Assembly (NCBI GenBank): GCA_044359815.1
Contig: JBIKLL010000001.1
Span: 1-64,000, forward strand
Direction of reading: 5' to 3'
Source: Pseudobdellovibrionaceae bacterium
Lineage (GTDB): Bacteria > Bdellovibrionota > Bdellovibrionia > Bdellovibrionales > Bdellovibrionaceae
DNA length: 64,000 nucleotides
Shown: positions 14,037 to 62,076 of the stretch, piece by piece
Position numbering within the stretch: position 1 is the first letter of the stretch
Layout of the letters: every line of letters starts with the position of its first letter
Notes under the pieces: generated by a model
What the model was told of the DNA's origin: nothing
Database searches by the model: none
What the model saw: only the letters and a program-made list of their open reading frames with translations
Position numbers and translations under genes: made by a program

Positions 14037-14059
14037 AAAAATTGGAGCTTTTAAACAAA

Positions 14060-43672: not shown

Positions 43673-43750
43673 GCCGCTGATAAAAGCGCCGTTCTGGTAA
43701 ATCCGCAAAATACAGTTTTTTAAAATATATAAAATTATTTTTTATTTGCA

Positions 43751-43896
43751 GAATTATTTAGTTTTTAATTCTTTAACGTCTTGTGCAGCGAGCGCGCTTT
43801 GCGTATCGCAGGGGTGCGGCACCGCAGGTGAAGCGCTCCGCGAGACGAAATGCGGCCGTTAGCGAAAGACGTTAGAGAGTTAAAAATAGAAAATTC
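43751..43896. repeat. hairpin element E2b with type-B core
   Basis: Imperfect AT-rich arms enclose GCAGCGAGCGCGC (43785-43797) and GCGGCCGTTAGCGA (43852-43865), the same motifs as in E1. Confidence 0.85.
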
Positions 43897-43905
43897 AAAA
43901 AAACA

Positions 43906-44039
43906 GTTTTTTAAGTATCTAAATTTATTTTTACTTAAAAAGGTCCTCTGCGGAGCCTGGATGGCGGGGGCTTGCCCCGAGCAGAGAAGCAGGAGCTGTG
44001 ACCTTTTTAAGTAAAAATAAATTTAGATACTTAAAAAAC
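43906..44039. repeat. hairpin element E2a: 40-bp perfect arms with type-A core
   Basis: Arms 43906-43945/44000-44039; core 43946-43999 is a reverse-complement homologue of the cores at 47394 and 61333. Confidence 0.93.
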
Positions 44040-44053
44040 AGTTTACAGAGGAT

Positions 44054-44701
44054 TTACCAGAGCCAGCCGACTGACAGCAGAAAGCTCAGATCGTTCCGGG
44101 TCGATTTTTCGATGTCCTCTTGATCTGCGGCTGAATAAAATCCGTTTTCAAAAGTCACTTCAGGTTTTTTGCTATAGCTGCGATACCCCAGCTCGACGGC
44201 CCCCCAGATATTTTCAACAAACAAACCTGCTGCTCCAATGACCGGATTGACGGCAAGTCCCTTACCGATTTGATAATCAGCATCTTGCAGATTCGTGATT
44301 TTTTTAAGCTTGGCACCATTGGTGCTGATCAAGCTGGCTCCGCCGTATAATTTCAAATTAAATTCGTCCCCTAATGGTGCCACTTGCTGTGACCAAAAAT
44401 AAAAATTCCCCCCGATTGAACTGACGGATCCTATTGCTGAAAATCCCAGCGAAAAATGCAGATCCAGATTTTGCAAAATAAAGTACTTAGCGCCGGCTCC
44501 AAAAATCCCATAGCTGGTATTCGCACCACCGCCCAAATCTGTGACAAATCTTTTGGCAGTTTTAATTTCAACAGTTTCTTTTCGAGCCTCGGTTTCTTCA
44601 GGATCTTTGATATCCTGATACCCTGGCAATTGGCAAAAAGCTTTACCCGATGTGAGGGTCAATAATACTGGAACCAAATATAAAGATATTTTTTTAATCA
44701 T
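44054..44701 (-). CDS. putative small outer membrane beta-barrel protein
   Basis: Signal peptide; Gly/aromatic strands; ends SVGWLW. Confidence 0.7.
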   Translation of the reverse strand: MIKKISLYLVPVLLTLTSGKAFCQLPGYQDIKDPEETEARKETVEIKTAKRFVTDLGGGANTSYGIFGAGAKYFILQNLDLHFSLGFSAIGSVSSIGGNFYFWSQQVAPLGDEFNLKLYGGASLISTNGAKLKKITNLQDADYQIGKGLAVNPVIGAAGLFVENIWGAVELGYRSYSKKPEVTFENGFYSAADQEDIEKSTRNDLSFLLSVGWLW

Positions 44702-44777
44702 TTAAAAAGCATAGCGATTGCTCAGAAACTGCGTCAAGCTCCTTGAGTATTGAATTATAAAAAGCTAGTTTTATTAA

Positions 44778-45581
44778 ATGCTGATGATCACAATCCCACA
44801 TTCCGGCGAACAAATCCCAGAAAATGCCAATTGGCTTAAAAAACTGCCCGAAGAAATTTTGATGTGTGACGTGGACCGTTTCGTCGATAGGCTTTATGAA
44901 CCCACGATTCAAAAATTAAATATCCCCTACATCAAAACCCAATGGCACCGTTACGCAGGCGATTTAAATCGATTGGCCGAAGACGTAGATTGCGATTCAG
45001 TTATTGGTAATCCCAATCCCAGTGGCCAATTTTCACGTGGGTTTATTTGGGTCAAAACCACGTTAAATTATAAACTTTTGCCCCAACCGATTTCAGCGAC
45101 TGATCACCAGCAACTGAAAGCTCTGATTTTTGACCCCTTTCATGCACAGATCAAAACGGTGTCGGAAACTTTATCAAAATCCCACAAAAATATTTATCAT
45201 TTGGATTTGCACTCGATGCCATCGGTGGGAACTTCTGAACACCGTGATCCAGGTGAAAAGCGTGCCGATATTGTCGTTAGCGACAGCAAGGGTAAAAGCT
45301 CCTCAAAAGCTTTTGTGGATTTAGTCATTTCCAGTTACAAAAACCAAGGCTTCAACGTGGCATACAATTGGCCCTATTTCGGTGGCCGTTTGACCGAAGC
45401 CTACGGTAAACCAACCCAGGGACATCACACTGTTCAGGTAGAGCTCAACAGAGGCCTTTATATGGATGAAACCAGCAAAAAGTGGCTCGATGGTAAAGCC
45501 TTAGACACTCAAAGCCGGTTATCTAAAGCCTTATCCAGTGTTTATGATGGTTTGAGGATTGCAGATAAGGCCATCATATAG
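44778..45581 (+). CDS. N-formylglutamate amidohydrolase family protein
   Basis: IPHSG, DLNR, DLHSMPS, NWPYFGG and QVELNRGLY motifs. Confidence 0.92.
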   Translation: MLMITIPHSGEQIPENANWLKKLPEEILMCDVDRFVDRLYEPTIQKLNIPYIKTQWHRYAGDLNRLAEDVDCDSVIGNPNPSGQFSRGFIWVKTTLNYKLLPQPISATDHQQLKALIFDPFHAQIKTVSETLSKSHKNIYHLDLHSMPSVGTSEHRDPGEKRADIVVSDSKGKSSSKAFVDLVISSYKNQGFNVAYNWPYFGGRLTEAYGKPTQGHHTVQVELNRGLYMDETSKKWLDGKALDTQSRLSKALSSVYDGLRIADKAII

Positions 45582-45623
45582 AGGGACTTAACAACAAAAG
45601 GTCCCTTAAATAAAGGGATTTAA

Positions 45624-47327
45624 ATGAAGTTGATCTCTGTCCTGGTATTTTTATTAGCTATTCAAAGTGAGGCCAGATTTTTATCTGCAGCTGAGCAATC
45701 GCTATTAGTGTCAGCCGAAAAAGGCGACCTGCAGGGCGTGGTGGATGCTATTAATCAAAAGGCCTCAATAAATGCTGCTGATTTTCATGACCATACGGCA
45801 CTGATGAAGGCTTCAGCCAAGGGGCACCTGGAAATCGTAAAATTACTTATCGAAAAAAGAGCCAATCTGAATCTTAAGGGCCTTGAAAAAGGCGCTGAAT
45901 CAACGTCTCACAAAAGCGACTCAGCTTTAATGATGGCCATTGATAGTGAAAAATACGATGTCGTCAAAGCTTTAGTTTTAGCAGGCGCTAACGTGAACCA
46001 AAAAGACATTATGCAAAGAACAGCCTTAGTAAAACTGATAGACAATTCCACCAATTTAAAACTCAAGAAAAAGATCAGCAAAGAAAAGCTTCTAGAGCTG
46101 GCAAAACTATTTATTGAGCACGGTGCTGATCTGAATTTGGGACGCAAAGAAGTCGTTCGAACAGATAAAAAAGGCAGATCCAAGACCACCATTGAATCAG
46201 AAGTTGAAACACCTTTGATGTTTGCAGCTGAAGGTGGACAGGCTGATTTGGTAGAATATTTGTTATCTCAAGGCGCTGATCCATCAATCAATGTATTGGA
46301 TCCACAAAATAACGACGTTGAAAATGCGATTGAGCTTGCAAAAGAAGCCAGAAAAAATCCTGAAAATAAAAAGTGTAAAATAACCAACACCGAAGCACTT
46401 AATTATTGTGATTACAAAAGGGTTATCCAGCTTTTAAATGACCCATCTTCTGCTGTTGGTGTAATGACACCATTTTTTGATATTCAATTGCTAGAGGCTG
46501 CAGAAAAAGGCAATTTAGCTGATATCGAAAAAGCTCTTCAGCAAGGCGCAAAAATTAATGCCCTGGATGAAGACGACGAAACCGCTTTGTATAAAACAGT
46601 AAAGACAAAAAATCTGCCGGCTGTTAAATTTCTGATTTCAAAAGGCGCTGACGTTAATTTAAAAACCACTCAAAGCGAAACTGCACTGTCTGCAGCTGTG
46701 GTCACTCAAAACTACGATATCATTAAAGCCATTGTTCAAGCCGGCAGTATGGCTGATCTGAAGGATCTGCAATTTAAAACTGCATTGATTGATCTGATAG
46801 ATGACGTTAATAAAGACGGCTACCGTTCATCGACGTTGTCACGAATGAATCAGTTTAATCTGATTCAAATGCTGATCGCTAAGGGCTCTAACCCCGAATA
46901 CGGTGTTAAATCAAAAACCGAAAAGCAAAAGGCAACAGAAGTCGTGATTATGTATTCGACTTTGTATACTGGCTTGATAGCTGCGGCTGATTTAGGAAAT
47001 GCTGATTTAGTCAGATACTTGCTTGCTACTAAAAGCCCCACGGGTCCTGCATTGGCTAATCCTGATGTGATCATCACAGATGACAGTTTGGATGTCTATG
47101 GCAGGGCTCTAGAGGTTGCTAAATACGTGGCCACTGATCCCACTGCTAAGAAAAATTGTAATCCTGGCAAGGCCGTGGCAGCCGGGGTTCACCCTTTGAA
47201 CGATCCTGATAATCAAAAACAATCAGTCAAAAACTACTGTGATTACCAAACTACGATTGATTTGCTGACCCAGGTCACCAAGGGAAAACCATTAGTCAGC
47301 AAATCTATGGAAAACGTCGAAGAGTAG
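45624..47327 (+). CDS. secreted ankyrin-repeat protein
   Basis: Signal peptide; multiple TALM.A...G..EIVK.LI..GA..N repeats; two duplicated halves. Confidence 0.9.
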   Translation: MKLISVLVFLLAIQSEARFLSAAEQSLLVSAEKGDLQGVVDAINQKASINAADFHDHTALMKASAKGHLEIVKLLIEKRANLNLKGLEKGAESTSHKSDSALMMAIDSEKYDVVKALVLAGANVNQKDIMQRTALVKLIDNSTNLKLKKKISKEKLLELAKLFIEHGADLNLGRKEVVRTDKKGRSKTTIESEVETPLMFAAEGGQADLVEYLLSQGADPSINVLDPQNNDVENAIELAKEARKNPENKKCKITNTEALNYCDYKRVIQLLNDPSSAVGVMTPFFDIQLLEAAEKGNLADIEKALQQGAKINALDEDDETALYKTVKTKNLPAVKFLISKGADVNLKTTQSETALSAAVVTQNYDIIKAIVQAGSMADLKDLQFKTALIDLIDDVNKDGYRSSTLSRMNQFNLIQMLIAKGSNPEYGVKSKTEKQKATEVVIMYSTLYTGLIAAADLGNADLVRYLLATKSPTGPALANPDVIITDDSLDVYGRALEVAKYVATDPTAKKNCNPGKAVAAGVHPLNDPDNQKQSVKNYCDYQTTIDLLTQVTKGKPLVSKSMENVEE

Positions 47328-47330
47328 TCC

Positions 47331-47512
47331 GAAACAGCGCTACCCTAAAAATAATTTCTAAAATCTAAATATTTTAAAGTACTTTAAAAGGTTACAGCAT
47401 CCTGCTTCATCCGCTCGGGCAGAGCCCCCGCCATCCTAGCTCCGCGGAGAACCATTTAAAGCAATTTAAAATATTTAGATTTTAGAAATTATTTTTAGGG
47501 CAGCGCTGTTTC
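47331..47512. repeat. hairpin element E3: 63-bp arms with type-A core
   Basis: Arms 47331-47393/47450-47512 (59 of 63 complementary); core 47394-47449. Confidence 0.93.
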
Positions 47513-47535
47513 AAACTGCCCTATTCGACGTTACT

Positions 47536-47958
47536 TTAAAACGGGATGTCGTCGTTTTGCTCAAAGCTAGGCTCAGGCCCAAAATCCTGGCTGTAATCAC
47601 CACCAGATTGAGTGGACCTTTCTGAGTTCGCACTTCCTAAAAACTGAACATTGTTAGCAACTATTTCTGTAGAATATTTCTTAACGCCACTGGGATCATC
47701 CCAGCTTCGAGTCTGCAATCGACCCTCAACATAGACTTGTCGCCCCTTAGACAGATGTTTAGCGCAGTTCTCGGCCTGTTTGCCCCACACCACCACACGG
47801 TGCCATTCGGTTTTTTCCTGCTTCTGTCCATCTTTGCTCAACCAAGATTCACTGGTTGCCACTGATAAACGGGCCACAGATTGACCACTGCCGACACTTT
47901 TTAGCTCGGGATCCTGACCTAAACGACCAACGATAATTACTTTGTTAACTCCTGACAT
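47536..47958 (-). CDS. ssb: single-stranded DNA-binding protein
   Basis: [25 protein letters not shown] and C-terminal DDIPF. Confidence 0.97.
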
Positions 47959-48060
47959 AATGTCCTTTCCGCCCAACCACACACGGTTGAGTCGCTTTGT
48001 GTTTGTTAAACACTGTCGTGACATAATAAAAGTGTCAAAGGGAAAAAATGTATTTACTGG

Positions 48061-49035
48061 TTACTGCAAAGCCCCAAAATTAGGGACCGATTCCGGACCG
48101 CTGGCGGATAATTTAAACTTAAATCGCGCCCCATCAGCAACAGGTGTTTTGTGCTGTTCAATAAAACTTAAAAACAATTTAGCCCTGTCTTCGAAACTTT
48201 TTTTGACTGTTATGTCGATATCAAAGGAATAACTGCCAGGCATGGGCATAATCCGGCCACCTAAATTCTGAATTTGCATCGACATGCCGCCTTTGATTGT
48301 CCCGGTGATTTCGTCAGCGCCTTTGCCAATCAGCCCTTGTTCAATCTGAAATCTGCCGGCCGATAGACGGCCCTTTAGCTGCAAACTGGAAACTTTAAGT
48401 TCTGGCAGATTCATTGGCCCCATGGGGGTGTTAACATTGCTTGGGGGAATTTCAAATTTCTCGACCTTTAAATCCACTTCCACATCTGGTTGCTCTTTAA
48501 AAGCAAAATCCGCAACGGCTGTGCTTTTTAAATCTAAATTTCCGCGCAAGGGAACCGGCAGATTCAATAATTCTTGCAAATCTTTTAAGGACAATTTCTC
48601 AGCTTCGATGGTGATTTTATTTTTCTCGACTCCATTTTCAGATTTGCCCCCTGAAGACAAACTGATATCCACATTTCCCTTTAAAAAACCCTTAGCATAC
48701 AAAGACCCACCAGGCTTTTGATAAATCAATGCAGATATTGAAGGCGACACGCTGATTTCGCCCACCGTGATGGCAGGGAAAGCCCGAGTTTCGACTGACA
48801 GATTTTCCAGATGTAATCCCATAGGCAAAATATTTATATCCATATGGTCAAACTGAACGTAAACCTGATTCTGGGTCGCTTTTGAAACCTGACTGGCCAC
48901 CAGATCAGACAAATCATCAAAGGGAAACAGTAAAAATAAAAACAGCAGAGTCGACAACAACGCCAAAGCAAATTTGGATTTATTGGACAAACACCACCTG
49001 AGGCCTATTTTTACGTATTCTAAGACCTGAGCCAT
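48061..49035 (-). CDS. gspN: type II secretion protein GspN
   Basis: N-terminal TM then LFPFDDL; last gsp gene; beta-rich periplasmic domain. Confidence 0.75.
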   Translation of the reverse strand: MAQVLEYVKIGLRWCLSNKSKFALALLSTLLFLFLLFPFDDLSDLVASQVSKATQNQVYVQFDHMDINILPMGLHLENLSVETRAFPAITVGEISVSPSISALIYQKPGGSLYAKGFLKGNVDISLSSGGKSENGVEKNKITIEAEKLSLKDLQELLNLPVPLRGNLDLKSTAVADFAFKEQPDVEVDLKVEKFEIPPSNVNTPMGPMNLPELKVSSLQLKGRLSAGRFQIEQGLIGKGADEITGTIKGGMSMQIQNLGGRIMPMPGSYSFDIDITVKKSFEDRAKLFLSFIEQHKTPVADGARFKFKLSASGPESVPNFGALQ

Positions 49036-49694
49036 TATTTTTTACCCTTCTTGGGAGGCTCTGGTTCAGGCAAAGGCTCGATAATTTCTGGCACCTTTAA
49101 AACAATTAATCTGTAAATCACATCGTAATAACGTTCGTCCTCGCCGTTGGCGTTCATAATCATGTCTTTCATTTTCACCGAGGCACTGAGGGCCGTTAAC
49201 TGCTGACCCACGTCTATGATTTGCTTTAGGTTCAGTTTATTGACAACGACTTCAATGGTTCCATCAGACAACTCTTGCGGAAATAATCTTGAACCCAGTG
49301 GCACGGTCTCAACTGATTTTATCAAATCCTGCATGACCCGGCTGGCTTGCAGTTCAGTTTGAATCCGACTTTTCAGCGAATCAATAGGCGGAGGCATCGG
49401 AATTTCCGGGACCTCATTGGCTTCTTTGGCTGTTTTTAATAATTCCCTGATCAGACCTCGGCGTGATAAAAAATCTTCCACATTGGTCATAGACTGTGTC
49501 AGGTATCCCCATGGGGATGACAGAAAAATCAAAATAATCAAGACCACTGCAGAAATCGTCACAACTCTTTGCATGCTGGGACTTAAGTTTTCGTATTTGT
49601 CCTTCAGTTGCTGATAGGCTGCAGATTCTTCGGTTCGATCAACTAAAACCTTAAACTGTGATTGTAAATTATCGCGCAGATCTTGAAAATTCAT
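49035..49694 (-). CDS. gspM: type II secretion protein GspM-like
   Basis: YENLSPSMQR followed by a single TM; lies directly after gspL. Confidence 0.65.
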   Translation of the reverse strand: MNFQDLRDNLQSQFKVLVDRTEESAAYQQLKDKYENLSPSMQRVVTISAVVLIILIFLSSPWGYLTQSMTNVEDFLSRRGLIRELLKTAKEANEVPEIPMPPPIDSLKSRIQTELQASRVMQDLIKSVETVPLGSRLFPQELSDGTIEVVVNKLNLKQIIDVGQQLTALSASVKMKDMIMNANGEDERYYDVIYRLIVLKVPEIIEPLPEPEPPKKGKK

Positions 49695-51358
49695 AATTTC
49701 TTCCCGGTCTGAATGCCGCGATCAACTTTGAAACTCATCGAAAACGGAAAGGTATTAGGTGGTCCTTGTCTGGTAGTGGGCGCCGTATTGACTTTGCCAT
49801 TCAAAGCCACTGCGCCCAAGTTTCTTTGCAGAACATTGATATCAGTTAATTTCCCAACAACGCCTTCAATAAAAACTGAATCGTCTTCAACCCTCAACGT
49901 CTTCACGCTGATTTGCATTTGTTCCCTGGGCGGAGCCGAGTCACTGATTCTTTTAACGATTTCAATGGCTGAATTCATCTGCGTAATACCTGCCAAAACT
50001 TTTAAATCCTGAATTTGTTTTTTCTGATCCTTAATGTATTTTCTGACTCCAGCCTCGTTAGCCTGTTTGCCTGATAGTTTTGCCACTGATTTAGCCTGAG
50101 CTTTCAATGCATCAGTGGCTTTATCAGCCAGTTCCAGGGACGCCGATTCCCTGAACAAAGAAAAAAAGTAAAAAACTAAAAACATGGCTGCCGACAATTG
50201 AATTGTTGGCCCCCATTGTTTCCAAACATTTTGAAAGGAATTAGATTGCCGAGCAAATTCTTGTCTTAAAAAATTAATCGCAGGATTTCTGGGTTTTTTA
50301 AATCCCTCAATGGCTAAGCCCAAAGCTATGCCAATTTTAGATTCTACTAAAATGTTTTTCTCGAATGGCAAATGGCCGTAATTAACCAAGGGATCAAATC
50401 GATTGACTGGGATTTCAATCATCTGCGTCAGCAGAGCCGAGATATTTCTGATATTGGCCACACCACCGCTGATCTGTACATTTTCAACTTCCACATTCAG
50501 ATCAGCTTTTAGCTCCAGCAATGTGATTTGCAGTTCGCGGCCCAGTTCTTTTAAACATTTGCTAATCACATCTGAAAACACAATTTGATCGTAAGAAGCA
50601 TTTTCCTTGGTTGGCAGCACAAACCCTTTGGTGTTGACCTCTTTGATGGCCTCCACATAGGGGATTTCATATTTTTGGGCGATGGCATCTGCCACTAATT
50701 TTCCGCCCCACAAAATGGTTCTGACATCGATTAGTTTTTGATTTTCAAATGTGCATACGATGGTTTTTGTATGGCCCAAAATTAAATTAATCTTGGCATG
50801 TCTGAGCTCTTTTGTGGGCCCCTCTTCCAGATTATAATTCGGATCCACAGATGGCGCCGCCATCCAATTTTCAACACAATTTGCAAATGCCAAGCCTTCC
50901 GGGGATAAAATATTAAGTTCAATCCCTGAATCTTTAAAAACATTTAAAACTTCTTGAACCCTCAGTTTGGGAGTTGCCACTGTCAGTGTTTCAGTTAGCT
51001 TTCCCCGAATGCGAATGATTTTGTTATCAAAGGCTGCATCTTCAGTGGCAAAAGGAACTTCTTCTTCAAGTTCAAATGGCAAACTTTTTAAAATTTTTAT
51101 TTTGTCCGAAAAGGGAAATAACTTGGTCCTGACACTGACTCTGTCTTGGCGCAATCCACACACAAATTTAGTCTTAGTCCCAGCGTATCTGGCTGCGACT
51201 TTTCGCAAAACTTCCAGAATTTCGATTTGCGAATCAAAGGCAGGGTTCTGCCCTAAAGTGTGCTCAAAATAGTCAGTAATGTGAAAACCTTTATTACTGC
51301 CCGTCAGCTCCACAATCTTGATACTGCTGGAACCTATGTCTATACCGATTGACTTCAC
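49691..51358 (-). CDS. gspL: type II secretion protein GspL (PilM-like actin fold plus TM)
   Basis: IGIDIGSSSIK, ISGG and INFLR followed by TM. Confidence 0.8.
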   Translation of the reverse strand: MKSIGIDIGSSSIKIVELTGSNKGFHITDYFEHTLGQNPAFDSQIEILEVLRKVAARYAGTKTKFVCGLRQDRVSVRTKLFPFSDKIKILKSLPFELEEEVPFATEDAAFDNKIIRIRGKLTETLTVATPKLRVQEVLNVFKDSGIELNILSPEGLAFANCVENWMAAPSVDPNYNLEEGPTKELRHAKINLILGHTKTIVCTFENQKLIDVRTILWGGKLVADAIAQKYEIPYVEAIKEVNTKGFVLPTKENASYDQIVFSDVISKCLKELGRELQITLLELKADLNVEVENVQISGGVANIRNISALLTQMIEIPVNRFDPLVNYGHLPFEKNILVESKIGIALGLAIEGFKKPRNPAINFLRQEFARQSNSFQNVWKQWGPTIQLSAAMFLVFYFFSLFRESASLELADKATDALKAQAKSVAKLSGKQANEAGVRKYIKDQKKQIQDLKVLAGITQMNSAIEIVKRISDSAPPREQMQISVKTLRVEDDSVFIEGVVGKLTDINVLQRNLGAVALNGKVNTAPTTRQGPPNTFPFSMSFKVDRGIQTGKKL

Positions 51359-51376
51359 ATGAAATCCTTTTCAAGT

Positions 51377-53920: not shown

Positions 53921-54566
53921 TCCTTAAATCCTTTAATCGGGTTTCTTTCTCGATCACATCTGTAAAACCAGTCAGCGGATTGATCACCAGGGTCCAATTG
54001 ACTTCTTTTTTATTGGTGATCAAAATGGCTGCTTTTTCAACCAAACCTTCTGGTGAAAAATAAACGTAGGCTTCGTTATCGCTATTCGCACCTGTACGCG
54101 ATGAGGTTTCAACAAAGCCAAAACTAAATCCATCAGGTAATTTTTTAACTCCTTTAAAAAATTTCTCGGATTTTGAAAAAGGATTTGAAGGAGCCTCGTC
54201 AGTGCCCACTGATTTGTCCTTTTCAGCTTTTATGGATTCATCGGTTTTTGCCAGTACATTTCCATTAGCGGCTTCAACCCAATAGCTGTAAGCACCGTCT
54301 TCCATTTTAAAAACTATTCTGTGGGTCATGTTTTTTACACGGGCTTCGTTTCGAACTTCTCGGGACAGAACCGATAAATGCCTAGCAACTGCTTTAACAT
54401 TATTTTGTGGGCTTTTTATCCTGGGGATCCCCAGCACAACAATGGTGCTCAGGATCGCCAGAACGATCATAATTTCTACTAAGGTAAATCCCTTAATACT
54501 ATTACTGTAATTCTTCAGCTGTGATGTCTTTGTTTTTACCATCACCGCCTTCTTTTCCATCAGCAC
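53913..54566 (-). CDS. gspH: minor pseudopilin GspH
   Basis: KGFTLVEIMIV, YFSPEG and INPLTG; start uncertain. Confidence 0.82.
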   Translation of the reverse strand: MLMEKKAVMVKTKTSQLKNYSNSIKGFTLVEIMIVLAILSTIVVLGIPRIKSPQNNVKAVARHLSVLSREVRNEARVKNMTHRIVFKMEDGAYSYWVEAANGNVLAKTDESIKAEKDKSVGTDEAPSNPFSKSEKFFKGVKKLPDGFSFGFVETSSRTGANSDNEAYVYFSPEGLVEKAAILITNKKEVNWTLVINPLTGFTDVIEKETRLKDLRIE

Positions 54567-54930
54567 CTAAACTCTTCAGGTTGTAAGTACCGCCGCTAGA
54601 TTCATAAACAAAACCATTTGACCATGCATCTGGTGGAACCTTTTTCATGTAAGGATCAGGTCCCCAGTTAGAACAAGCAGAATCAGCAGTGGATAACCCA
54701 TCTAAGCTGGGTGGGTATTTACCACAGTCGGTGTAATACAGATTTAGAGCTTGTGCGATTTGACCCATGATCAATTTAGTTTGGCTGAATTTTGATTTAT
54801 CCAATCGACTCATCACTGTTGGCAACAAAACTGCTGCCAGTCCACCGATAATCATCAACACGATCATGATTTCTAATAAGGTCATACCCTTTTGATTTAT
54901 TTTTTTTAAAGAACTGAAAATACCATTCAT
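54502..54930 (-). CDS. gspG: major pseudopilin GspG
   Basis: KGMTLLEIM, YP, DAWSN and SLGADGKEGG..D. Confidence 0.93.
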   Translation of the reverse strand: MNGIFSSLKKINQKGMTLLEIMIVLMIIGGLAAVLLPTVMSRLDKSKFSQTKLIMGQIAQALNLYYTDCGKYPPSLDGLSTADSACSNWGPDPYMKKVPPDAWSNGFVYESSGGTYNLKSLGADGKEGGDGKNKDITAEELQ

Positions 54931-54974
54931 AGTGAGTCCTCATTTCTGCAAAATGCTGATTAAGAAATCCTAGG

Positions 54975-56195
54975 CTAACCCGAAATATTTGTCATCTCAA
55001 ACATTGGAATCATTACGGCAAACACAATCATTCCAATGACAAATCCCATTATGACCATGACAACAGGACCCATAAGGCTTGTTAAACCCTCTACTTTATT
55101 TTTAACTTGAAAATCATAGGCATCTGATACTTGGATCAGCATGTTTTCCAAATCGCCTGTTTTTTCTCCAATGTTAACCATGTGAATCACCAGTGGTGGA
55201 AATTGTCCCGATTTTCTCAAGGGGCCAGCAATGGATTCCCCCTCTGAAATATTGCTTCTGGCGTCATCAATGGCTTTGGCGATCAATGCATTGTCCACAA
55301 CATTTCTGACAATCCCCATGGCGTTCAGCATAGGCACACCACCCGTCAACAATGTAGCCAGTGTTCTGGTAAATCTGGCCACGGCGACTAAGCGATTCAT
55401 GTCTCCAAAAAGAGGCATCTTCAGCGAAATGGCATCCCAGCTTTCTTTACCCGATGGAGTTCTTTTCCAATTCTGAAACAAAAAAAATGCTAACACCAAA
55501 ACACCTAAAATTATGTACCAGTAATTCACCATTATGGCGCTAAAATCAAAAACTATAGTCGTGTACCAAGGAAGCTTTAAATCCGGTCTGGATTCAAAAA
55601 TCGCTACCATTTTTGGAATCACAAAGACAAATAAAAATCCCAAAAGCCCCAGTGTCACCACCAGCATCAACACAGGGTATGTCAAAGCACTTTTGACTTT
55701 GGATTGCAGTTCATTTTGCGCTTCAGTAAATTCAGCTAACCTGATCAAAATAGTATCCAAGGTTCCCGACATTTCACCGGCTTCACACATAGTCACATAA
55801 ATGGGCGAAAAAATATTTGGATACCGGGACAAAGTTTTATAAAAGGGCGAGCCCTCATTGACCAGATTTTTACATTCGGCAACGACTTCTTTAAGGGTCG
55901 GATTTTCAACCTGTTCTGAAACCGCATTCAGAGCATCCACCAAGGGGATATTGGCTTTTAGCAATGTCGCCAGCTGACGAGTCATTAATGAAATGTCTTT
56001 AACACCAACCCGCTTTGAGCTTCCACCGCCCTTTTTCTTGGTGCCAGTGTCTACTCGTTTTTTGTCTTTCAAATCGACAACGTAAATCCCGTCTTTTTTC
56101 AATTTCACACGGGCTGCACGGATATTGTCAGCATCAATTATGCCTCTAGTATTTTTCCCATCCTTAGATAAACCTCGGTATTCAAATACAGGCAT
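54975..56195 (-). CDS. gspF: type II secretion inner-membrane platform GspF
   Basis: TRQLATLL, AGEMSGTL and IGEKTGDL. Confidence 0.95.
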   Translation of the reverse strand: MPVFEYRGLSKDGKNTRGIIDADNIRAARVKLKKDGIYVVDLKDKKRVDTGTKKKGGGSSKRVGVKDISLMTRQLATLLKANIPLVDALNAVSEQVENPTLKEVVAECKNLVNEGSPFYKTLSRYPNIFSPIYVTMCEAGEMSGTLDTILIRLAEFTEAQNELQSKVKSALTYPVLMLVVTLGLLGFLFVFVIPKMVAIFESRPDLKLPWYTTIVFDFSAIMVNYWYIILGVLVLAFFLFQNWKRTPSGKESWDAISLKMPLFGDMNRLVAVARFTRTLATLLTGGVPMLNAMGIVRNVVDNALIAKAIDDARSNISEGESIAGPLRKSGQFPPLVIHMVNIGEKTGDLENMLIQVSDAYDFQVKNKVEGLTSLMGPVVMVIMGFVIGMIVFAVMIPMFEMTNISG

Positions 56196-56198
56196 AAA

Positions 56199-57887
56199 TT
56201 ATTGATCCAATTGTGTGTTTGAAATCAGCTCTTCAAAAGTTGTGATACCGCTGAGCACCTTTTGTATACCATGGTCCCTAAATGTTTTCATGCCATTTGC
56301 GGCTGCCATTTTTCTGATTGTTGCACCGTCTTTACGCTGCATGATCAAGGACCTAATCTCCTCGTTCATCACCAATAATTCGGCGATCACAGTTCGACCT
56401 ATATAACCCTTTTGATTGCATTGACTGCATCCGATGGCTTGGTGAGTGTTTGCTTTTGCAACATCAGCTCGTGTTAACCCAAAAGCATTTAATTCAAAAT
56501 CAGAGGGGGTGTATTTAGCTTTGCAATGGGGACACAGAACTCGGATCAGACGCTGAGCCACCACACCTAAAATCGATGTCGCAATTAAAAAAGGTTCTGC
56601 TCCAATATCAATCAACCTTGGAAAAGCTCCTGAAGCATCGTTGGCGTGGATGGTTGACAGCACTAAGTGACCCGTCAACGAGGCATTGATGGCAAGCTCT
56701 GCTGTTTCCAAATCCCTGATCTCACCCACCATTATAATATCTGGATCTTGACGTAAGAAGGCTCTTAAACCTGCAGCAAAGGTCAGACCTATTTTGGAAT
56801 TCACTTGCACTTGGCCAACTCCGTGAATCCTTTGCTCGACGGGGTCTTCGACGGTCAAAATATTTTCGCCAGGTTTATTTAGTTTTTGCAAACATCCATA
56901 CAAGGTCGTTGATTTACCAGAACCAGTAGGACCTGTAACAATTAAAATTCCGTAAGATCGTTGAATCAATTCATAAAGGGTTTTTAAAATCTCATCGCCA
57001 AAACCTAATTGTTCAAGTTCCAAAACCACATTGGATCTGTCCTGCAAACGCATCACGATGCGCTCGCCATGGGACGTCGGCACTGTGTTCATACGAATAT
57101 CAATGTCTTTACCGCCGACCTTTAACGGAATCCTACCATCCTGAGGAAGTCTTTTTTCGGCGATATTTAAATTGGCCATGACTTTAAGTCTTGAAGTGAT
57201 TGAGTTCTGTAATTTCTTGGGCGGCTTAAAAACATCAAACAACACCCCGTCTATTCTAAATCTGACGGACATGTCTTTTTCATAAGGTTCAACGTGAATA
57301 TCAGAGGCTTTTTCTTTAACCGCTCTGAACAGCAAAGAATTCACTAATTTAATGACGGGAGCATCGTCTTCACCGGCTTCCAACAAATCCACAATAGGAT
57401 CATCCAGATCATAATCTTCTTCTTCAATTTCCTCTAAACCTGCCAAATTAGCCGTGGATTTTTCATAAACCCTGTTAATGGCATCCTGGATTTTTTGTTG
57501 AGTGGTCACCAGCGGTCTGATTTTTTTGCCAAACATCACGCGCAAATCATCTAGGACTTTTAAATTAATAGGATTGCTGGTCAATGTGACCAATTGATCG
57601 CCCTCTTCCTTGTAAGGCAATATCCCATTTGATTTTGCAAAATTAATCGAGATCCCTCTGACTAAATCTGGAGAAATATCATTAACAGGAATGTCCTTGA
57701 TAAAATCAAACCCCATTTCTTTGCACAGCTCATGAACCAGCTCTTCAGCTGAAGAAAAATCTTTGGCGGACAAATTCTCACCAACAGAAGTGATCCCGTT
57801 ATAGGATGCCGTCCCCAGCACAACCTTGATCTGATCTTCAGTCATGGTTGTGCTTTTTAAAAGTAAGGTTTGAATATCTGTCGCCAT
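56199..57887 (-). CDS. gspE: type II secretion ATPase GspE
   Basis: GPTGSGKST, EDPVE, LRQDPD, TGHLVLST and a tetracysteine motif. Confidence 0.96.
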   Translation of the reverse strand: MATDIQTLLLKSTTMTEDQIKVVLGTASYNGITSVGENLSAKDFSSAEELVHELCKEMGFDFIKDIPVNDISPDLVRGISINFAKSNGILPYKEEGDQLVTLTSNPINLKVLDDLRVMFGKKIRPLVTTQQKIQDAINRVYEKSTANLAGLEEIEEEDYDLDDPIVDLLEAGEDDAPVIKLVNSLLFRAVKEKASDIHVEPYEKDMSVRFRIDGVLFDVFKPPKKLQNSITSRLKVMANLNIAEKRLPQDGRIPLKVGGKDIDIRMNTVPTSHGERIVMRLQDRSNVVLELEQLGFGDEILKTLYELIQRSYGILIVTGPTGSGKSTTLYGCLQKLNKPGENILTVEDPVEQRIHGVGQVQVNSKIGLTFAAGLRAFLRQDPDIIMVGEIRDLETAELAINASLTGHLVLSTIHANDASGAFPRLIDIGAEPFLIATSILGVVAQRLIRVLCPHCKAKYTPSDFELNAFGLTRADVAKANTHQAIGCSQCNQKGYIGRTVIAELLVMNEEIRSLIMQRKDGATIRKMAAANGMKTFRDHGIQKVLSGITTFEELISNTQLDQ

Positions 57888-57902
57888 TTTTCCTATTCTA
57901 AT

Positions 57903-60251
57903 CTATCGCTGATTGGTTTCAACATTTCCCTCAGCTGGTGCAGTTTGTTGCGCCCTTAATTTGTCAGCCGTAGTACCAAATGGGTCTTTGCCGCCTGTCG
58001 CCTTTATATGATCAAGCCTGTCATCCAATTTTTTTGACAATAATTTATTAGCATCCTGCGAACTGCGGATGATTTTTGGAGTCAAAAATATTGTCATATT
58101 GGTTTTACTGACTCCCGTTTTTCTGGATTTAAACAGCCAACCAATAATGGGGATATCGCCCAGCAATGGCACCTTAAAAACATCTTCGGTTTGTTCGTCC
58201 TTCATCAATCCGCCCAGCACCGCGGTGTCACCATTGCGCACCACTATGTTGGTTTCAATCTTTCTGGTCGCCAGTGGTTGCACCTGAGTTTTAAAAGCTT
58301 CAACAGTCGTGATCTGACTGAGCTGCTTAACGCTGCTTTTTATTTCAAGCCTGATCGAATTCGACGTCGGACTGATAAATGGTTTTATCTTGAGCGAAAT
58401 ATTAGCATCTTCCAGTTGTGGTGTGACCACTGTCGCGGCTCCATTAACCCCAGGAGTCTGCGTAAAGCTTGTGGCAACCTTATCACCGACTTCGATCAAG
58501 GCCTCTTGATTATCTAGGGCCAAAATTTGTGGCGTCGATAAAATATTTGCGTTCGCGTTTTTCTTTAAGAAACTGATAAAACCCAGCAAACTGTTTATGG
58601 TTGTGGTCGTATTGTTGGTAGGATTTGTGATGGTAACTTTGTCATTGGAACCAAATCCCAACACTGTTCCTGTACCACCCTGAGGACTCATCAAATCTAA
58701 CAATGATGTGTTTAATCCATTGAATCCAACTTTGCCTGCACCTTCATTAAATTTGAAATACCCGATTTCATAGGCAAATGAATCCGTGGCTTTCATTTCC
58801 ATAATGATGGCTTCAACGTAAACTTGATCCCTTGGGATATCAATTTTTGCTAACAGATTTAACACCACTTCGTAATCTTGCTTGCTTGCCACAACAACAA
58901 GGGAATTTGTTCCTTTGTCAGCTGTGATTTTAACATCACCACCAAATATTTCCTGAGGCCCGGCAGCGACACCCGAAACCGGCGAAATAGCCGGCGGAGA
59001 TCCCGATGAACCTGATCCAGACGATCCTGTTGCTTTCGGACCAGCCTCTTTTGCGATTCCAGACAGAGTCTGAGCGATTTTTTCAGCGTCACCGTGTTTG
59101 ACGTAATACACGTACACGCCACCAGCATCCTCGGGTCTGATTCTGAAATCCAATTGCACTAATAATTTTCTGATTCTGGAAGTACCGGCTTTGTTACCAA
59201 CAACAATCAACGAATTCGTTCTGTCATCAGGAATAACCATATAATAGGCTGATCCCTGCGAACCTTGTGTTTGGTTTCTGGTGAATCTAGGCACTCCTGA
59301 AGAAAACGTACCACCCTGCCTGTTGTTGGTACTGTTTTGACCTTTGTTGACGATCTTATCAATCAGATCAGCAATGTCTTTTGCCTTTGCAAACTTGACC
59401 GGAATGACTTCCAATTGGTCTTCAAAACCAGGGATATCCAATTGGCTGATGATCTTCATGATGCGATCAATGTTCGAACCAAAATCTGAAATGATCAGTG
59501 AGTTGGTGGGTGAATAAATCGACATCTCACCATCTTTTGAAGTCAGAATCCTAAGCTCTTTGTTAATCAAATCGGCAGAAATATGCTTCAAATGAATGAT
59601 TCTGGTAATCATCTGATCGGCATTGGGATAATAGGTTCCCGAGTAAGTCTCAATGCTGTCACGTTGCGAATTTCTGGCAGATCTGATTTTCAAAAATCCA
59701 CCTGATGGAACAATGGCAAATCCATTGATCGCCAGTGCCGATAAAAAAGCTTTGTAGGCTTCTGCCACAGTGATTTTGCTGGGAGCTACAATCGTGATTT
59801 TACCCCTGACACCCTGATCGATGATAAAGTTTTTCCCGGTCAATTCACTGATGGCTTTCACGATGTCTGTGATATTAGCATCAACAAAATCAAAGCTTTC
59901 AATAATTTCAGGAAAATTATCATTGGTGATGTCTTCAATCCCAGCTTTAGCAAATTTGTCTTTTTGGGCTTTTGATAAAACTCCGCCCTCTTCCTTTTTG
60001 GCAGCAGGCCCTTGAGCGCTGTCAAAAGCACCTTGCGAATTTGAAAACCCACCCATTGAAGGCGGCGGCGGAGGTGGCGGCGGTGGGAAATTCCCACCTC
60101 GATTAAAATTACCCATCCCCGGTGGCGGCGGTGGATCCTCATCAAAATCATCAATCTGAGCAAAAACACTTTGCAGAACAAATAACTGCAACAGCAGCAT
60201 CAGCCCAAACATCCAGATCACTTTGCGAAAATTTTTAAAATTCATATCCAC
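57903..60251 (-). CDS. gspD: type II secretion secretin GspD
   Basis: N0-N3 domains; ANILSTP and KVPLLGDIPIIGWLF. Confidence 0.95.
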   Translation of the reverse strand: MDMNFKNFRKVIWMFGLMLLLQLFVLQSVFAQIDDFDEDPPPPPGMGNFNRGGNFPPPPPPPPPSMGGFSNSQGAFDSAQGPAAKKEEGGVLSKAQKDKFAKAGIEDITNDNFPEIIESFDFVDANITDIVKAISELTGKNFIIDQGVRGKITIVAPSKITVAEAYKAFLSALAINGFAIVPSGGFLKIRSARNSQRDSIETYSGTYYPNADQMITRIIHLKHISADLINKELRILTSKDGEMSIYSPTNSLIISDFGSNIDRIMKIISQLDIPGFEDQLEVIPVKFAKAKDIADLIDKIVNKGQNSTNNRQGGTFSSGVPRFTRNQTQGSQGSAYYMVIPDDRTNSLIVVGNKAGTSRIRKLLVQLDFRIRPEDAGGVYVYYVKHGDAEKIAQTLSGIAKEAGPKATGSSGSGSSGSPPAISPVSGVAAGPQEIFGGDVKITADKGTNSLVVVASKQDYEVVLNLLAKIDIPRDQVYVEAIIMEMKATDSFAYEIGYFKFNEGAGKVGFNGLNTSLLDLMSPQGGTGTVLGFGSNDKVTITNPTNNTTTTINSLLGFISFLKKNANANILSTPQILALDNQEALIEVGDKVATSFTQTPGVNGAATVVTPQLEDANISLKIKPFISPTSNSIRLEIKSSVKQLSQITTVEAFKTQVQPLATRKIETNIVVRNGDTAVLGGLMKDEQTEDVFKVPLLGDIPIIGWLFKSRKTGVSKTNMTIFLTPKIIRSSQDANKLLSKKLDDRLDHIKATGGKDPFGTTADKLRAQQTAPAEGNVETNQR

Positions 60252-60253
60252 CC

Positions 60254-61156
60254 CTACTTAATTTTATAATTGTAATCAATTTTTTGACCGTCTCGTTCAA
60301 AGCTCAGGCTCAGATTGTTTGTATTTTTTAGAGAACCATAAAGCTCCATGGCCTTGGCTGGACTGTCGATTTTTTCTCCGTTCACTCCGCTCAGACAATC
60401 ACCCACTTGAAACTTTAACTGGGTATAGATGCTTCCAGGCTGAATGTTCAGAAACTTGTAGCATTCAATTTCACCGTTGGCGTTGCGCTTAGGAGCCATC
60501 GCTGCCTGCTGCAGAACTTGAGCCATATTAGCCGTGTATTTTAAAATATCTGCTCGCTTAACTTCGAAAGTATTCGGAGCAGTTTCCCTGACTTCTGAAT
60601 CGCCACCGCCGCCTGCCGCAGGAGCTGCTTGAGCAAAAGATAATTTACTGCCTTGAGTCTTCATCTCGATGTATTCAAGCCTGTTGTTATTGGTGTTTTG
60701 GAAAATAATTTTCCCGCGAAGCACTTCCTGCAACAAAGCCATGCCCTCGATGTCTCGTCCGGGTGAAAACGGCAGAACCGTGTTTTTGCTTTTGATTTCG
60801 ACATTTGCGATAGATTTTTTAGGATTGGAATGCACAATGGTCCCCACCAAGGTCAACGGCAAGCTTGACGGTACTGGAACATCATTTCGCTCACTGCCTG
60901 GAACCTCACCCTTAGGGACAATGGCATCAGGGATTTTGCCGTCCCAATTAAAAATATTCCTGGTCACAATCGTGTTTAGATAGGATCTGGAAACAGTCTG
61001 AGAGGTCACTTGTTTTTTGGGCTTACTGGGTGGAGGTTGAGTCGGGATCATCAGGTCCCGATAATTCATAATCATCAGGTCAGCAATGCAGTAGCCGATA
61101 AACACAAACAGCAAGTAAGGTGCTAAAGTTTTTGCGAAATTTCGAAATTCATTCAC
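60254..61156 (-). CDS. gspC: type II secretion protein GspC (PDZ-containing)
   Basis: TM, RNIF, LTLVGT and a C-terminal PDZ-like domain. Confidence 0.88.
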   Translation of the reverse strand: MNEFRNFAKTLAPYLLFVFIGYCIADLMIMNYRDLMIPTQPPPSKPKKQVTSQTVSRSYLNTIVTRNIFNWDGKIPDAIVPKGEVPGSERNDVPVPSSLPLTLVGTIVHSNPKKSIANVEIKSKNTVLPFSPGRDIEGMALLQEVLRGKIIFQNTNNNRLEYIEMKTQGSKLSFAQAAPAAGGGGDSEVRETAPNTFEVKRADILKYTANMAQVLQQAAMAPKRNANGEIECYKFLNIQPGSIYTQLKFQVGDCLSGVNGEKIDSPAKAMELYGSLKNTNNLSLSFERDGQKIDYNYKIK

Positions 61157-61277
61157 GTCATCGTCCTTGATAACTGGTCCAGATAAAAATTCTACCTTTT
61201 GACGGAAGCCTAGTGTAGCTCAAACACCCGAACTCTACCTTAGGTCAGAGAGATTGAACCTAGCTGGCCCCTTTGCA

Positions 61278-61440
61278 AGTTGGTGAACTTAAAATTCAAA
61301 AAACTAAATCTATGATTTTACTAAAAAAGACCGCAGCTCCTGCTTCTCTGCTCGAGCAAGCTCCCGCCGTCCGGGCTCCGCAGAGGGTCTTTTTCAGTAA
61401 AATCATAGATTTAGTTTTTTGAATTTTAAGTTCACCAACT
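61278..61440. repeat. hairpin element E4: 55-bp arms with type-A core
   Basis: Arms 61278-61332/61386-61440 (54 of 55 complementary); core 61333-61385. Confidence 0.93.
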
Positions 61441-61482
61441 CACCATGGTATTAGAATCAAATTAATGGACTATGGTCTGTAA

Positions 61483-61986: not shown

Positions 61987-62076
61987 TACTAAGTCTATAC
62001 TGGACTTTCTAAAGACCCTGCAAGAAATTATTAATTTGTGATTCAATTCCTAACAAATTCATGGGAAGTTATTATT

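What the first reader, a model, noticed from the sequence alone, without database searches (positions are those of the whole stretch)
43906..61440. Dispersed hairpin family: conserved structured ~54-nt core inside long arms that differ between copies yet stay self-complementary (type A; 43906-44039, 47331-47512, 61278-61440)
Seen: three intergenic elements share a GC-rich core. Aligned, they read ACAGC-TCCTGCTTC-TCTGCTCGGGGCA-AGCCCCCGCCATCCAGGCTCCGCAGAG (E2a, - strand), ACAGCATCCTGCTTCATCCGCTC-GGGCAGAGCCCCCGCCATCCTAGCTCCGCGGAG (E3) and GCAGC-TCCTGCTTC-TCTGCTC-GAGCA-AGCTCCCGCCGTCCGGGCTCCGCAGAG (E4). The core shows compensatory changes (TCTGC/GCAGA vs TCCGC/GCGGA; GGGC/GCCC vs GAGC/GCTC). Arms pair 40/40, 59/63 and 54/55 within a copy but are only loosely similar between copies (shared CTAAAT and TACT-A-run). 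Known: REP doublets and MITEs conserve their inverted repeats and vary the interior, which is the reverse of this pattern. Inference: a single-stranded (RNA or ssDNA) structured element whose arms are kept matched by selection or arm-to-arm copying. It could be an uncharacterised non-autonomous mobile element or a 3'-UTR RNA module.
Basis: partly seen in the sequence, partly recalled or inferred. Interest (0 to 1): 0.85.

Follow-up and report, generated by a model that had tools for sequence, protein, structure and literature searches.

The report
Mobile hairpin repeats with self-matching arms
The three sites are copies of a large family of non-coding hairpin repeats in a lake-water Bdellovibrio-like bacterium, in which a conserved GC-rich tip sits on long AT-rich arms that differ between copies yet always mirror each other, apparently because the DNA itself copies one arm from the other.

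Summary
The draft genome (2.95 Mb) holds about 58 type A copies. At least four other core types share the same design, and together they account for most of the genome's 159 long inverted repeats. Within a copy the arms are 97.7% Watson-Crick complementary. Between copies they are only 30-61% identical. Substitutions and also indels are mirrored in both arms, and G-U pairs are almost absent. This points to DNA-level arm-to-arm copying, not stepwise RNA compensation. Copies lie mostly between convergent genes (32 of 50). They differ between related lake strains: present or absent, deletion remnants, or different members in one spacer. The core is old. Weaker but clear homologues occur in 39 of 150 related genomes. 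In one genus they sit at fixed loci (prpD-prpB, and beside SRP RNA), and the arms covary between species. My verdict is a new Bdellovibrionaceae variant of known kinds (REPIN/MITE-like hairpin repeats, TwoAYGGAY-like tip). The mobilising enzyme is unknown. This scan has noted similar architectures in other genomes (e1-3028483, e1-2864359, e1-1575332).

The parts
43901..43945 (.). E2a outer arm (left on the + strand)
   Evidence: Pairs with 44000-44044 at 44 of 45 positions
43946..43999 (-). The + strand reads as the GGA-loop (TwoAYGGAY-like) sense.
   Evidence: nhmmer 68.4 bits; R1 model 102.1 bits; fold
44000..44044 (.). E2a outer arm (right)
47321..47393 (.). E3 left arm. Its outermost bases overlap the last codons and the stop of ORF 45624-47327.
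   Evidence: 73 nt at 89% with 47450-47522; strict 63 nt with 59 matches at 47331-47393
47394..47449 (+). E3 core, 56 nt (CATCCGC subfamily)
   Evidence: 85.7 bits
47450..47522 (.). E3 right arm
61278..61332 (.). E4 left arm. It is preceded by CTGGCCCCTTT, the terminal motif shared with type B ends.
   Evidence: 54 of 55 with 61386-61440; motif
61333..61385 (+). E4 core, 53 nt, with the GAGC/GCTC variant of the central hairpin
61386..61440 (.). E4 right arm
42914..43672 (+). Flanking ORF (alpha/beta hydrolase-like), convergent with 44054-44701
44054..44701 (-). Flanking ORF with no Pfam match. It ends 9 nt from the E2a arm.
45624..47327 (+). Flanking ORF (ankyrin repeats), convergent with 47536-48024
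47536..48024 (-). Flanking ORF (SSB)
60254..61156 (-). Flanking ORF (weak T2SS protein C match), in tandem with 61483-62046
61483..62046 (-). Flanking ORF (GNAT acetyltransferase)
43760..43887 (.). Neighbouring element of another core type (type D: GTGCAGCGAGCGCGC...GCGGCCGTTAGCGA) with its own short AT-rich arms, 13 nt from E2a
   Evidence: Read; the same core is seen in 9 long inverted repeats

Best explanation
Type A elements are non-coding, hairpin-shaped repeats that behave like non-autonomous mobile DNA, in the manner of REPINs or MITEs. The conserved 53-58 nt GC-rich tip (three small hairpins closed by a CUCYGC/GCRGAG stem) is the part under sequence constraint. It is inherited across Bdellovibrionaceae. 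The long AT-rich basal stem is free to change in sequence. It is kept Watson-Crick complementary at the DNA level: when the element folds as a single-stranded hairpin, during replication or during transposition, one arm serves as template for the other. This is template switching, or fold-back repair, and it mirrors substitutions and indels alike and can replace a whole arm. What is shown: the family exists; the arms are symmetrical with mirrored indels; arm history and core history are decoupled; the copies sit at gene 3' ends; strains are polymorphic; the core is old. What is inferred: the templating mechanism, and mobilisation by an HUH/Y1 (RAYT-like) enzyme acting on single-stranded hairpins. 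Y1-type genes are the only transposase class found to be abundant in this genome.
For: (1) Scale. There are 65 core hits. Of 159 long inverted repeats, 55-58 are type A, 43 type B, 19 type C and 9 type D, all with AT-rich near-perfect arms around GC-rich cores.
(2) Symmetry. In 56 copies, 3076 of 3150 arm positions pair. In 42 nearest-neighbour copy pairs the left arms differ by 333 substitutions and 71 internal gaps, and the right arms by 346 and 72. Each copy's own arms have 0-4 mismatches and no gap.
(3) Watson-Crick only. In the 45-copy alignment there are 145 double-change cells, against 37.3 +/- 6.4 in shuffles (0 of 500 shuffles reach it), and only 5 G-U cells out of 1299.
(4) Arms and cores are decoupled. 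Arm similarity and core similarity correlate at r = -0.01. Arms that are 92% alike carry different core modules (C30 and C49:34707).
(5) Perfect arms persist in the copies with the long first module, most of which have lost both GGA hairpins. Arm matching therefore does not depend on those loops.
(6) Strain comparisons. In L070 versus C85 one arm is replaced while the flank, the core and the other arm stay about 95% alike. In L068 versus C43 and in L074 versus C92, flanks and core are similar but the arms are unrelated, and each pair of arms is self-complementary. In L071 versus C14 the same spacer holds different members. C27:7162-7208 is a deletion remnant. There are two sites that are filled in one strain and empty in the other.
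(7) Position. 32 of 50 copies lie between convergent ORFs and 1 between divergent ORFs. The background is 410 convergent out of 2502 intervals. REP/BIME-type repeats have the same bias (recalled).
(8) Enzymes. One RAYT-like gene is flanked by inverted REPs that also bracket type C elements. There are 8 paralogues of a second Y1-like gene. No DDE_Tnp_1 or IS110 match was found, and one rve match.
(9) Template switching is reported to homogenise and expand inverted-repeat arms and to create and maintain hairpins (PMC8794818, PMC5941160, PMC13100816; I saw only the search listing and the start of each abstract).
Against: No transposase is linked to type A. No complete copy lies within 3 kb of a Y1 gene; only a degenerate core at C8:22527 lies about 0.8 kb from one. 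The Y1 paralogue family and the core do not co-vary across 150 relatives.
No two copies in this genome have near-identical arms: the nearest-neighbour median is 0.78 and the maximum 0.93. Recent transposition within this genome is therefore not shown.
The polarity of the two 'empty' sites is open. Each could be an insertion with a short duplication plus an inverted copy of the flank, or a deletion between direct repeats.
Arm mismatches are asymmetric. A.C outnumbers G.T 30 to 15 in this genome and 22 to 8 cells at the prpD-prpB locus. These mismatches would be G-U pairs on the GGA-loop strand, which hints at RNA-level tolerance on that strand.
At that conserved locus a 3x3 internal loop persists across species. 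Symmetrisation is therefore not absolute, and selection acts too.
Short-read assembly can collapse near-identical inverted arms. It also cannot fix the orientation of the core when the arms are longer than k.
Confidence: 0.5

Rival explanations
1. The element is mainly a structured RNA. It would be a Bdellovibrionaceae relative of the TwoAYGGAY motif, transcribed from the strand opposite to the reader's 'core'. Its GGA-containing loops would bind CsrA, or pair with ribosome-binding-site partners. The long basal stem would be kept by selection on RNA folding, and copy number would rise by duplication.
For: TwoAYGGAY (RF01731) is the recurrent sub-threshold Rfam hit, at 28.3-34.5 bits. It appears in 8 of 25 loci tested, always on the opposite strand and over the full model 1-168. 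The AUGGAU loop aligns to the model's AuGGAU.
One TCC (GGA on the opposite strand) loop and the CTCCGC stretch are invariant or nearly so in 45 copies.
The genome has a csrA gene.
The core and its hairpins are conserved with covariation across genera and at fixed loci in one genus.
A.C mismatches, which are G-U on that strand, exceed G.T by 30 to 15 and by 22 to 8.
TwoAYGGAY is proposed as a Csr/Rsm sponge and is multi-copy and mobile-like (PMC4333381, passages; 10.64898/2026.09.22.753630, section 8 and discussion passages).
Against: G-U pairs are almost absent in the stems (5 of 1299 cells).
Mirrored indels are hard to obtain by stepwise RNA compensation.
About 13 of 45 short-core copies read TCGT, not TCCT, in the first loop. 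The long-core copies lack both GGA hairpins yet keep perfect arms.
Four other core types without this tip have the same kind of arms.
Orientation relative to neighbouring genes is random, 8 to 9.
All scores are below Rfam's gathering threshold. No hit came from the two subfamily-1/long-core copies tested (L009, L051) or from the 10 loci of genus g9 tested.
Confidence: 0.22
2. The elements are domesticated bidirectional transcription terminators, or hairpins that protect mRNA 3' ends, placed between convergent genes. Only stem stability would be selected, which would explain the free arm sequence.
For: 32 of 50 copies lie between convergent ORFs, usually within tens of bases of both stop codons. 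The GC-rich tip is preceded by an A run and followed by a T run on both strands. The predicted folds are very stable on both strands.
Against: The consensus terminator scan flags only one piece of one element (61373-61390). The region as a whole is not enriched: 18 sites found against 19.4 expected.
This reading does not explain the conserved tip sequence, the modular cores, the strain-level turnover, or the copies inside an operon and beside SRP RNA in relatives.
The same positional bias is expected for any insertion that must avoid promoters.
Confidence: 0.1
3. Only the core is mobile, and it inserts into the centre of pre-existing palindromes (older elements, REPINs, terminators). The 'arms' would then be host or older-element sequence, not part of the moving unit.
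For: Nesting is common. Type C elements sit inside REP doublets: 12 of the 22 inverted REP pairs enclose one. The C43 copy lies inside a further 35-nt GC-rich inverted repeat. The C116 'empty' site lies inside an outer 22-nt inverted repeat. Arm similarity and core similarity are uncorrelated.
Against: Few palindromes without a core exist in the genome: only 6 long inverted repeats have spacers of 20 nt or less, and one remnant is clearly a deletion product. In the strain comparisons, arms and core are exchanged together. The arms share a family consensus.
Confidence: 0.1
4. The perfect arms are an artefact of short-read metagenome assembly.
For: Many contigs end inside these repeats. Logan contigs of four independent runs also break there. 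De Bruijn assemblers can merge near-identical inverted arms (own knowledge).
Against: The same architecture appears in 12 contigs of other metagenomes and in complete single-contig genomes of relatives. Copies with 4-11% arm mismatches are assembled as such. Merging cannot create 40-60% divergence between copies.
Confidence: 0.03

Closest known systems
TwoAYGGAY RNA motif (Rfam RF01731; Weinberg 2010; Gardner & Eldai 2015; Li et al. 2026 preprint)
   Same: Both have small hairpins with (Y)GGAY loops on a long external stem of poorly conserved sequence. Both are multi-copy, with copy number that differs between strains, and both expand in a mobile-like way. The function of TwoAYGGAY is unknown (a Csr/Rsm sponge has been proposed). 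Subfamily-3 copies align to the whole model on the opposite strand, and the AUGGAU loop is matched.
   Different: Scores of 28.3-34.5 bits are below the gathering score of 43, and only 8 of 25 tested loci hit. Here there are three hairpins: a variable central one stands between the two loops. The second loop is AGGA or UGGAG, not AYGGAY, and many copies lack one or both GGA loops. The phylum is not among those reported ('Bdellovibrio' occurs 0 times in the preprint). The preprint's supplements, including its figures on elongated stems in Bacillota, could not be read.
REPIN/RAYT systems (REP doublets mobilised by a Y1 transposase)
   Same: Both are extragenic hairpin-forming repeats present in tens of copies, vertically persistent, and presumably handled as single-stranded hairpins. 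This genome has a real REP/RAYT-like system.
   Different: In REPINs the arms (the REPs) are conserved and the spacer varies. In type A the centre is conserved and the arms vary. No RAYT is flanked by type A sequence.
Bacterial MITEs and small palindromic repeats (Correia/NEMIS, ERIC, RUP, BIMEs)
   Same: Both are non-coding, carry inverted ends, lie between genes and vary by insertion between strains. Many type A arms descend from a terminal repeat shared with type B.
   Different: No autonomous partner was found and no clear target-site duplication. The arms are far longer than usual TIRs and are kept symmetric while diverging. The comparison with the named families rests on recall.
Quasipalindrome template-switch mutagenesis (a mechanism, not a family)
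   Same: It homogenises and lengthens the arms of an inverted repeat and makes multi-base 'compensatory' changes in one step. This is what the mirrored substitutions and indels look like (abstract starts).
   Different: It is known from single loci and from genome surveys. Here it would act on a whole repeat family and set the family's pattern of evolution. It has not been demonstrated for these elements.
Earlier notes of this scan (e1-3028483, e1-2864359, e1-1575332)
   Same: All describe a conserved GC-rich core at the tip of long, copy-specific, near-perfect arms. One is in another Bdellovibrio-like genome, and one proposes that the arms are regenerated by DNA copying.
   Different: The cores, genomes and copy numbers differ. 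These are unchecked AI notes and I used them only as leads.

Membership tests
TwoAYGGAY (RF01731) | Score at or above Rfam's gathering threshold (43 bits) | tested here: not met
   The window scan at gathering threshold gave 0 matches. With E-value thresholds, 8 of 25 loci scored 28.3-34.5 bits: L088, and L040, L045, L048, L050, L052, L054 and L056. The other 17 loci gave no hit.
TwoAYGGAY (RF01731) | [quoted passage not shown] | tested here: inconclusive
   On the opposite strand, subfamily 3 has one exact AUGGAU loop and one UGGAG loop. The window copies have UGGAU, UAGGAU or CGGAC plus AGGA. A third, variable hairpin stands between the two loops. The model's second hairpin was not aligned to ours.
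TwoAYGGAY (RF01731) | Long external stem, poorly conserved in sequence | tested here: met
   The arms are 39-81 nt, 97.7% paired within a copy and 30-61% alike between copies. The feature is as described in PMC4333381.
TwoAYGGAY (RF01731) | Multi-copy, with strain-level variation | tested here: met
   65 core hits; strain differences. The feature is as described in the 2026 preprint.
REPIN/RAYT | Two conserved REP sequences in inverted orientation around a variable spacer | tested here: not met
   In type A the centre is conserved and the arms vary.
REPIN/RAYT | A cognate RAYT gene flanked by the repeat | tested here: not met
   No long inverted-repeat element of any type lies within 3 kb of the 9 Y1-like genes. 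The RAYT-like gene is flanked by a different 24-nt REP.
MITE | Terminal inverted repeats shared by the family | tested here: met
   Many arms fit a consensus shared with type B ends, (C/A)TGGCCCACTTG..AATTTGAATTTT. Conservation is weak beyond 30 nt from the core.
MITE | Target-site duplication of fixed length | tested here: inconclusive
   The two filled/empty pairs show TTTAA and an imperfect direct repeat of about 10-12 nt. Both can also be read as deletion end points.
MITE | An autonomous element with the same ends and a transposase | tested here: not met
   All 47 arm pairs lie 83-292 nt apart and none encloses a gene. There is no DDE_Tnp_1 or IS110 match and one rve match. The genome is 91% complete and its repeats are under-assembled.
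Intrinsic terminator | GC-rich stem followed directly by a T run, and termination shown | tested here: inconclusive
   T runs follow the tip on both strands, but the simple scan flags only 61373-61390. Termination cannot be tested with these tools.

The most novel reading that the evidence does not exclude
These are self-templating hairpin replicators. Only one arm plus the tip would be the heritable unit. The second arm would be rebuilt by fold-back synthesis each time the element is copied or moved, perhaps by an HUH/Y1 enzyme acting on the single-stranded hairpin. This would be why whole arms can be swapped, why indels are mirrored, and why arms and cores have separate histories. The tip, a GGA-loop module related to TwoAYGGAY, would tie this replicator to a host RNA-binding regulator such as CsrA. 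That would give a mobile element a regulatory foothold across Bdellovibrionaceae.
Probability: 0.15. Interest if true: 0.85.

Novelty: new variant of a known kind. Interest (0 to 1): 0.6.

Why it matters
The elements account for about 130 of the genome's 159 long inverted repeats and explain much of why its assembly is fragmented.
They offer a natural data set of some 56 paralogous copies, plus orthologous copies in 14 species, in which apparent 'compensatory' evolution of a long stem is better explained by templated DNA copying than by RNA selection. That is a caution for covariation-based RNA discovery.
They extend a TwoAYGGAY-like tip to predatory bacteria, where fixed copies sit inside the prp operon and beside the SRP RNA gene. 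This gives cultured Bdellovibrio strains as a place to test what such tips do.
They also point to unstudied multi-copy Y1/HUH genes as candidate partners.

Tried and rejected
An exact core pattern found nothing in 185,579 species genomes or in viral contigs. The core in this exact form is therefore not found outside the lineage, although the model-based search finds diverged homologues.
Sequencing runs: no RNA holder is listed. Logan contigs of four lake-water runs laid on 43000-62000 break at the elements, and none bridges or skips them. The only joint is one opposite-strand joint at 61323/61396. This says nothing about excision or expression.
I looked for a link between the 206-aa Y1-like paralogues and type A and found none. 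The gene flanks share only about 90 nt upstream and no hairpin. The distribution across 150 relatives (103 with the protein, 39 with the core) shows no obvious tie. The G025 locus, with two cores near such a gene, shows ordinary genes between them.
The lenient gapped arm alignment over-extended into random sequence and I did not use it for element ends.
'Arms copied from the flank' (L073 versus C116) was my first reading. I downgraded it because a deletion between TTTAA repeats fits the data equally well.
The Rfam hits to plant and animal miRNA precursors are generic long-hairpin matches.
The CTGGYCC motif is not a general gene-end signal; it belongs to type B ends.
Earlier-findings look-up by sequence returned nothing.
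Full report
**Observation.** Inverted arms of 45, 73 (63 on the strict count) and 55 nt, at 98%, 89% and 98% complementarity, enclose 53-56 nt GC-rich cores that align with each other. Each element folds far below shuffled controls on both strands (z -11 to -16). Rfam at its gathering thresholds finds nothing in the window.

**Size of the family.** The window is contig C124 of a 2.95 Mb, 125-contig draft genome that is 91% complete. A profile of the three cores finds 65 hits. Nearly all complete hits carry 39-81 nt near-perfect arms. A core-blind search finds 159 inverted repeats with arms of at least 30 nt. Sorted by what lies between the arms, 55-58 are type A, 43 type B, 19 type C and 9 type D, and the rest are mixed. 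About 45 further type B half-copies sit at contig ends, so these repeats are a main cause of the fragmented assembly. All types share one design: AT-rich, near-perfect arms around a GC-rich core. The type A core is modular. It has a short or a long first module, and the GTCCAGGC hairpin is present or absent, in all four combinations.

**Arms.** In 56 complete copies, 3076 of 3150 arm positions pair (97.7%). Between copies, identity falls from 0.61 next to the core to 0.30 at 45-60 nt, close to shuffled controls. The arms are still not unrelated. Many fit a consensus shared with the better-conserved type B ends, (C/A)TGGCCCACTTG..AATTTGAATTTTAAAAAA... Arm similarity and core similarity are uncorrelated (r = -0.01). 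Arms that are 92% alike can carry different core modules. In 42 nearest-neighbour pairs the left arms differ by 333 substitutions and 71 internal gaps, and the right arms by 346 and 72, while each copy's own arms need no gap. Indels are therefore mirrored.

**Core structure.** In 45 short-core copies the structure I proposed is 95.8% paired. It has 145 double-change cells, against 37 in shuffles (0 of 500 shuffles reach this). The structure consists of the inner arms, a three-pair mini-hairpin, the CUCYGC/GCRGAG stem, the GGGC/GCCC hairpin and a GCC/GGC hairpin. Only 5 of 1299 cells are G-U. Arm mismatches number 74: 30 A.C, 15 G.T and 29 other.

**Position.** Using a crude ORF caller, 32 of 50 type A copies lie between convergent ORFs and 1 between divergent ORFs. 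The background is 410 convergent out of 2502 intervals. Types B, C and D show the same bias. Core orientation in tandem contexts is 8 same and 9 opposite. Two of the three window copies are between convergent genes.

**Turnover.** The exact core pattern is absent from the species-genome and viral collections, but it occurs in 12 metagenome contigs. Several of these are orthologous to G000 loci.
- Two sites are filled there and empty here (L067 versus C73, L073 versus C116). In both, the empty allele keeps the outer part of one arm. The pair can be read as an insertion with a short duplication and an inverted copy of the flank, or as a deletion between direct repeats.
- C27:7162-7208 is a clear deletion remnant.
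- In L070 versus C85 one arm has been replaced. In L068 versus C43 and in L074 versus C92 the flanks and core are similar, but the arms are unrelated and self-complementary in each strain.
- In L071 versus C14 one spacer holds different members.
- Lake-water runs hold the organism, but their contigs break at the elements.

**Age of the core.** A covariance model built from the 45 copies scores 80-107 bits in G000. It scores 33-61 bits in 39 of 150 genomes of the same family, 23 of them among the 32 genomes of one genus. These hits are true homologues, with the form CACGGCnTCCTGCCTC..GCT-[variable hairpin]-GGCCATCCAGGCCCCGCnGAGG. Each again sits at the tip of a long, copy-specific inverted repeat. 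In that genus the element sits at fixed loci: between prpD and prpB (14 genomes) and beside the SRP RNA gene upstream of dnaX (9 genomes). At the prp locus, 26 of 46 predicted pairs show double changes between species. A.C cells number 22 against 8 G-U cells, and a 3x3 internal loop is conserved.

**Closest known.** Rfam TwoAYGGAY is the recurrent sub-threshold hit (28.3-34.5 bits against a threshold of 43; 8 of 25 loci; full-length; always on that strand). That motif has a conserved tip on an external stem described as 'not well conserved', and it has been proposed to bind CsrA (PMC4333381, passages). A 2026 preprint reports that it is multi-copy and mobile-like (section 8 and discussion passages; supplements not readable). 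G000 has a csrA gene. Membership is not established. The score threshold fails, the second loop is not AYGGAY, and many copies lack one or both GGA loops. The genome also has a REP/RAYT-like system whose REPs bracket type C elements, and 8 paralogues of a second Y1-like gene. It has no IS4/5-type or IS110 match. I found nothing in print on such repeats in Bdellovibrio-like bacteria (searches; none of the 12 papers listed concerns them by title or abstract start, and none listed holds the word 'Bdellovibrio').

**Reading.** Four observations fit DNA-level arm-to-arm templating better than stepwise RNA compensation: mirrored indels, near absence of G-U pairs, replacement of whole arms, and the same arm behaviour around unrelated cores. 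Such templating is a published mechanism (abstract starts only). The excess of A.C over G.T and the conserved internal loop show that RNA-level or other selection on the GGA strand cannot be dismissed. The mobilising enzyme is inferred, not shown.

Noticed in passing
window 25834-26176 (also 63818 onward, running past the window end to C124:64218): Type B elements. They have better-conserved 55-70 nt ends, (C/A)TGGCCCACTTG..AATTTGAATTTT..GAATAC, around modular cores of 83-292 nt beginning TTGCTAACGGCCGC. There are 43-47 complete copies and about 45 half-copies at contig ends. The ends are homologous to many type A arms.
   Followed up: partly
window 43760-43887: A type D element (83-nt GC-rich core, short AT-rich arms) lies 13 nt from E2a in the same convergent spacer. 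Spacers often hold two or three elements of different types, for example C14:12451-13077.
   Followed up: partly
G000 C8:9476-10291 (locus L089): A RAYT-like Y1 transposase gene (NCBIfam REP_Tyr_transpos 72.5 bits, cut-off 80) is flanked by inverted copies of a 24-nt REP. The genome holds 54 such REPs in 22 inverted pairs, and 12 of those pairs enclose a type C hairpin element.
   Followed up: partly
G000 C23:201, C48:48177, C56:2996, C47:11964, C49:93331, C100:633, C125:2378, C8:23373 (loci L090-L097): Eight paralogues (86-92% identical) of a 206-aa distant Y1/HUH protein. Each is preceded by a different array of short tandem repeats (units such as CTAACTAT, GATTGATT, CCCGATT) and has no shared flanking hairpin. 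Relatives of the protein occur in 103 of 150 genomes of the family, with up to 22 matches per genome.
   Followed up: partly
L078, L080, L082, L083, L104-L108, L111, L116-L119 (prpD-prpB); L085, L087, L103, L112-L115, L120, L121 (beside SRP RNA/dnaX): In one genus of complete genomes the core homologue sits at fixed loci. One is inside the methylcitrate (prp) operon, and one is about 80 nt from the SRP RNA gene. The arms covary between species.
   Followed up: partly
G000 C39:5562-5778, C122:7125-7324, window 47321-47327: Convergent ORFs on both sides end inside the outermost arm bases at mirrored positions (-5/-5 and -3/-3). The arms therefore supply, or overwrite, the stop codons and the last codons of both genes.
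   Followed up: no
G000 C30:10166, C53:15511, C15:10436, C67:11911, C107:20277, C65:15056, C4:1040: In these long-core type A variants the first mini-hairpin is replaced by an AT-rich hairpin (GATTTC..GAAATC) and the GTCCAGGC hairpin is missing, so both GGA/TCC loops are lost while the arms stay perfect.
   Followed up: partly
window 13986-14055: A 35-nt inverted repeat with no spacer (83% complementary), one of the few palindromes in the genome without a core. I did not examine it.
   Followed up: no
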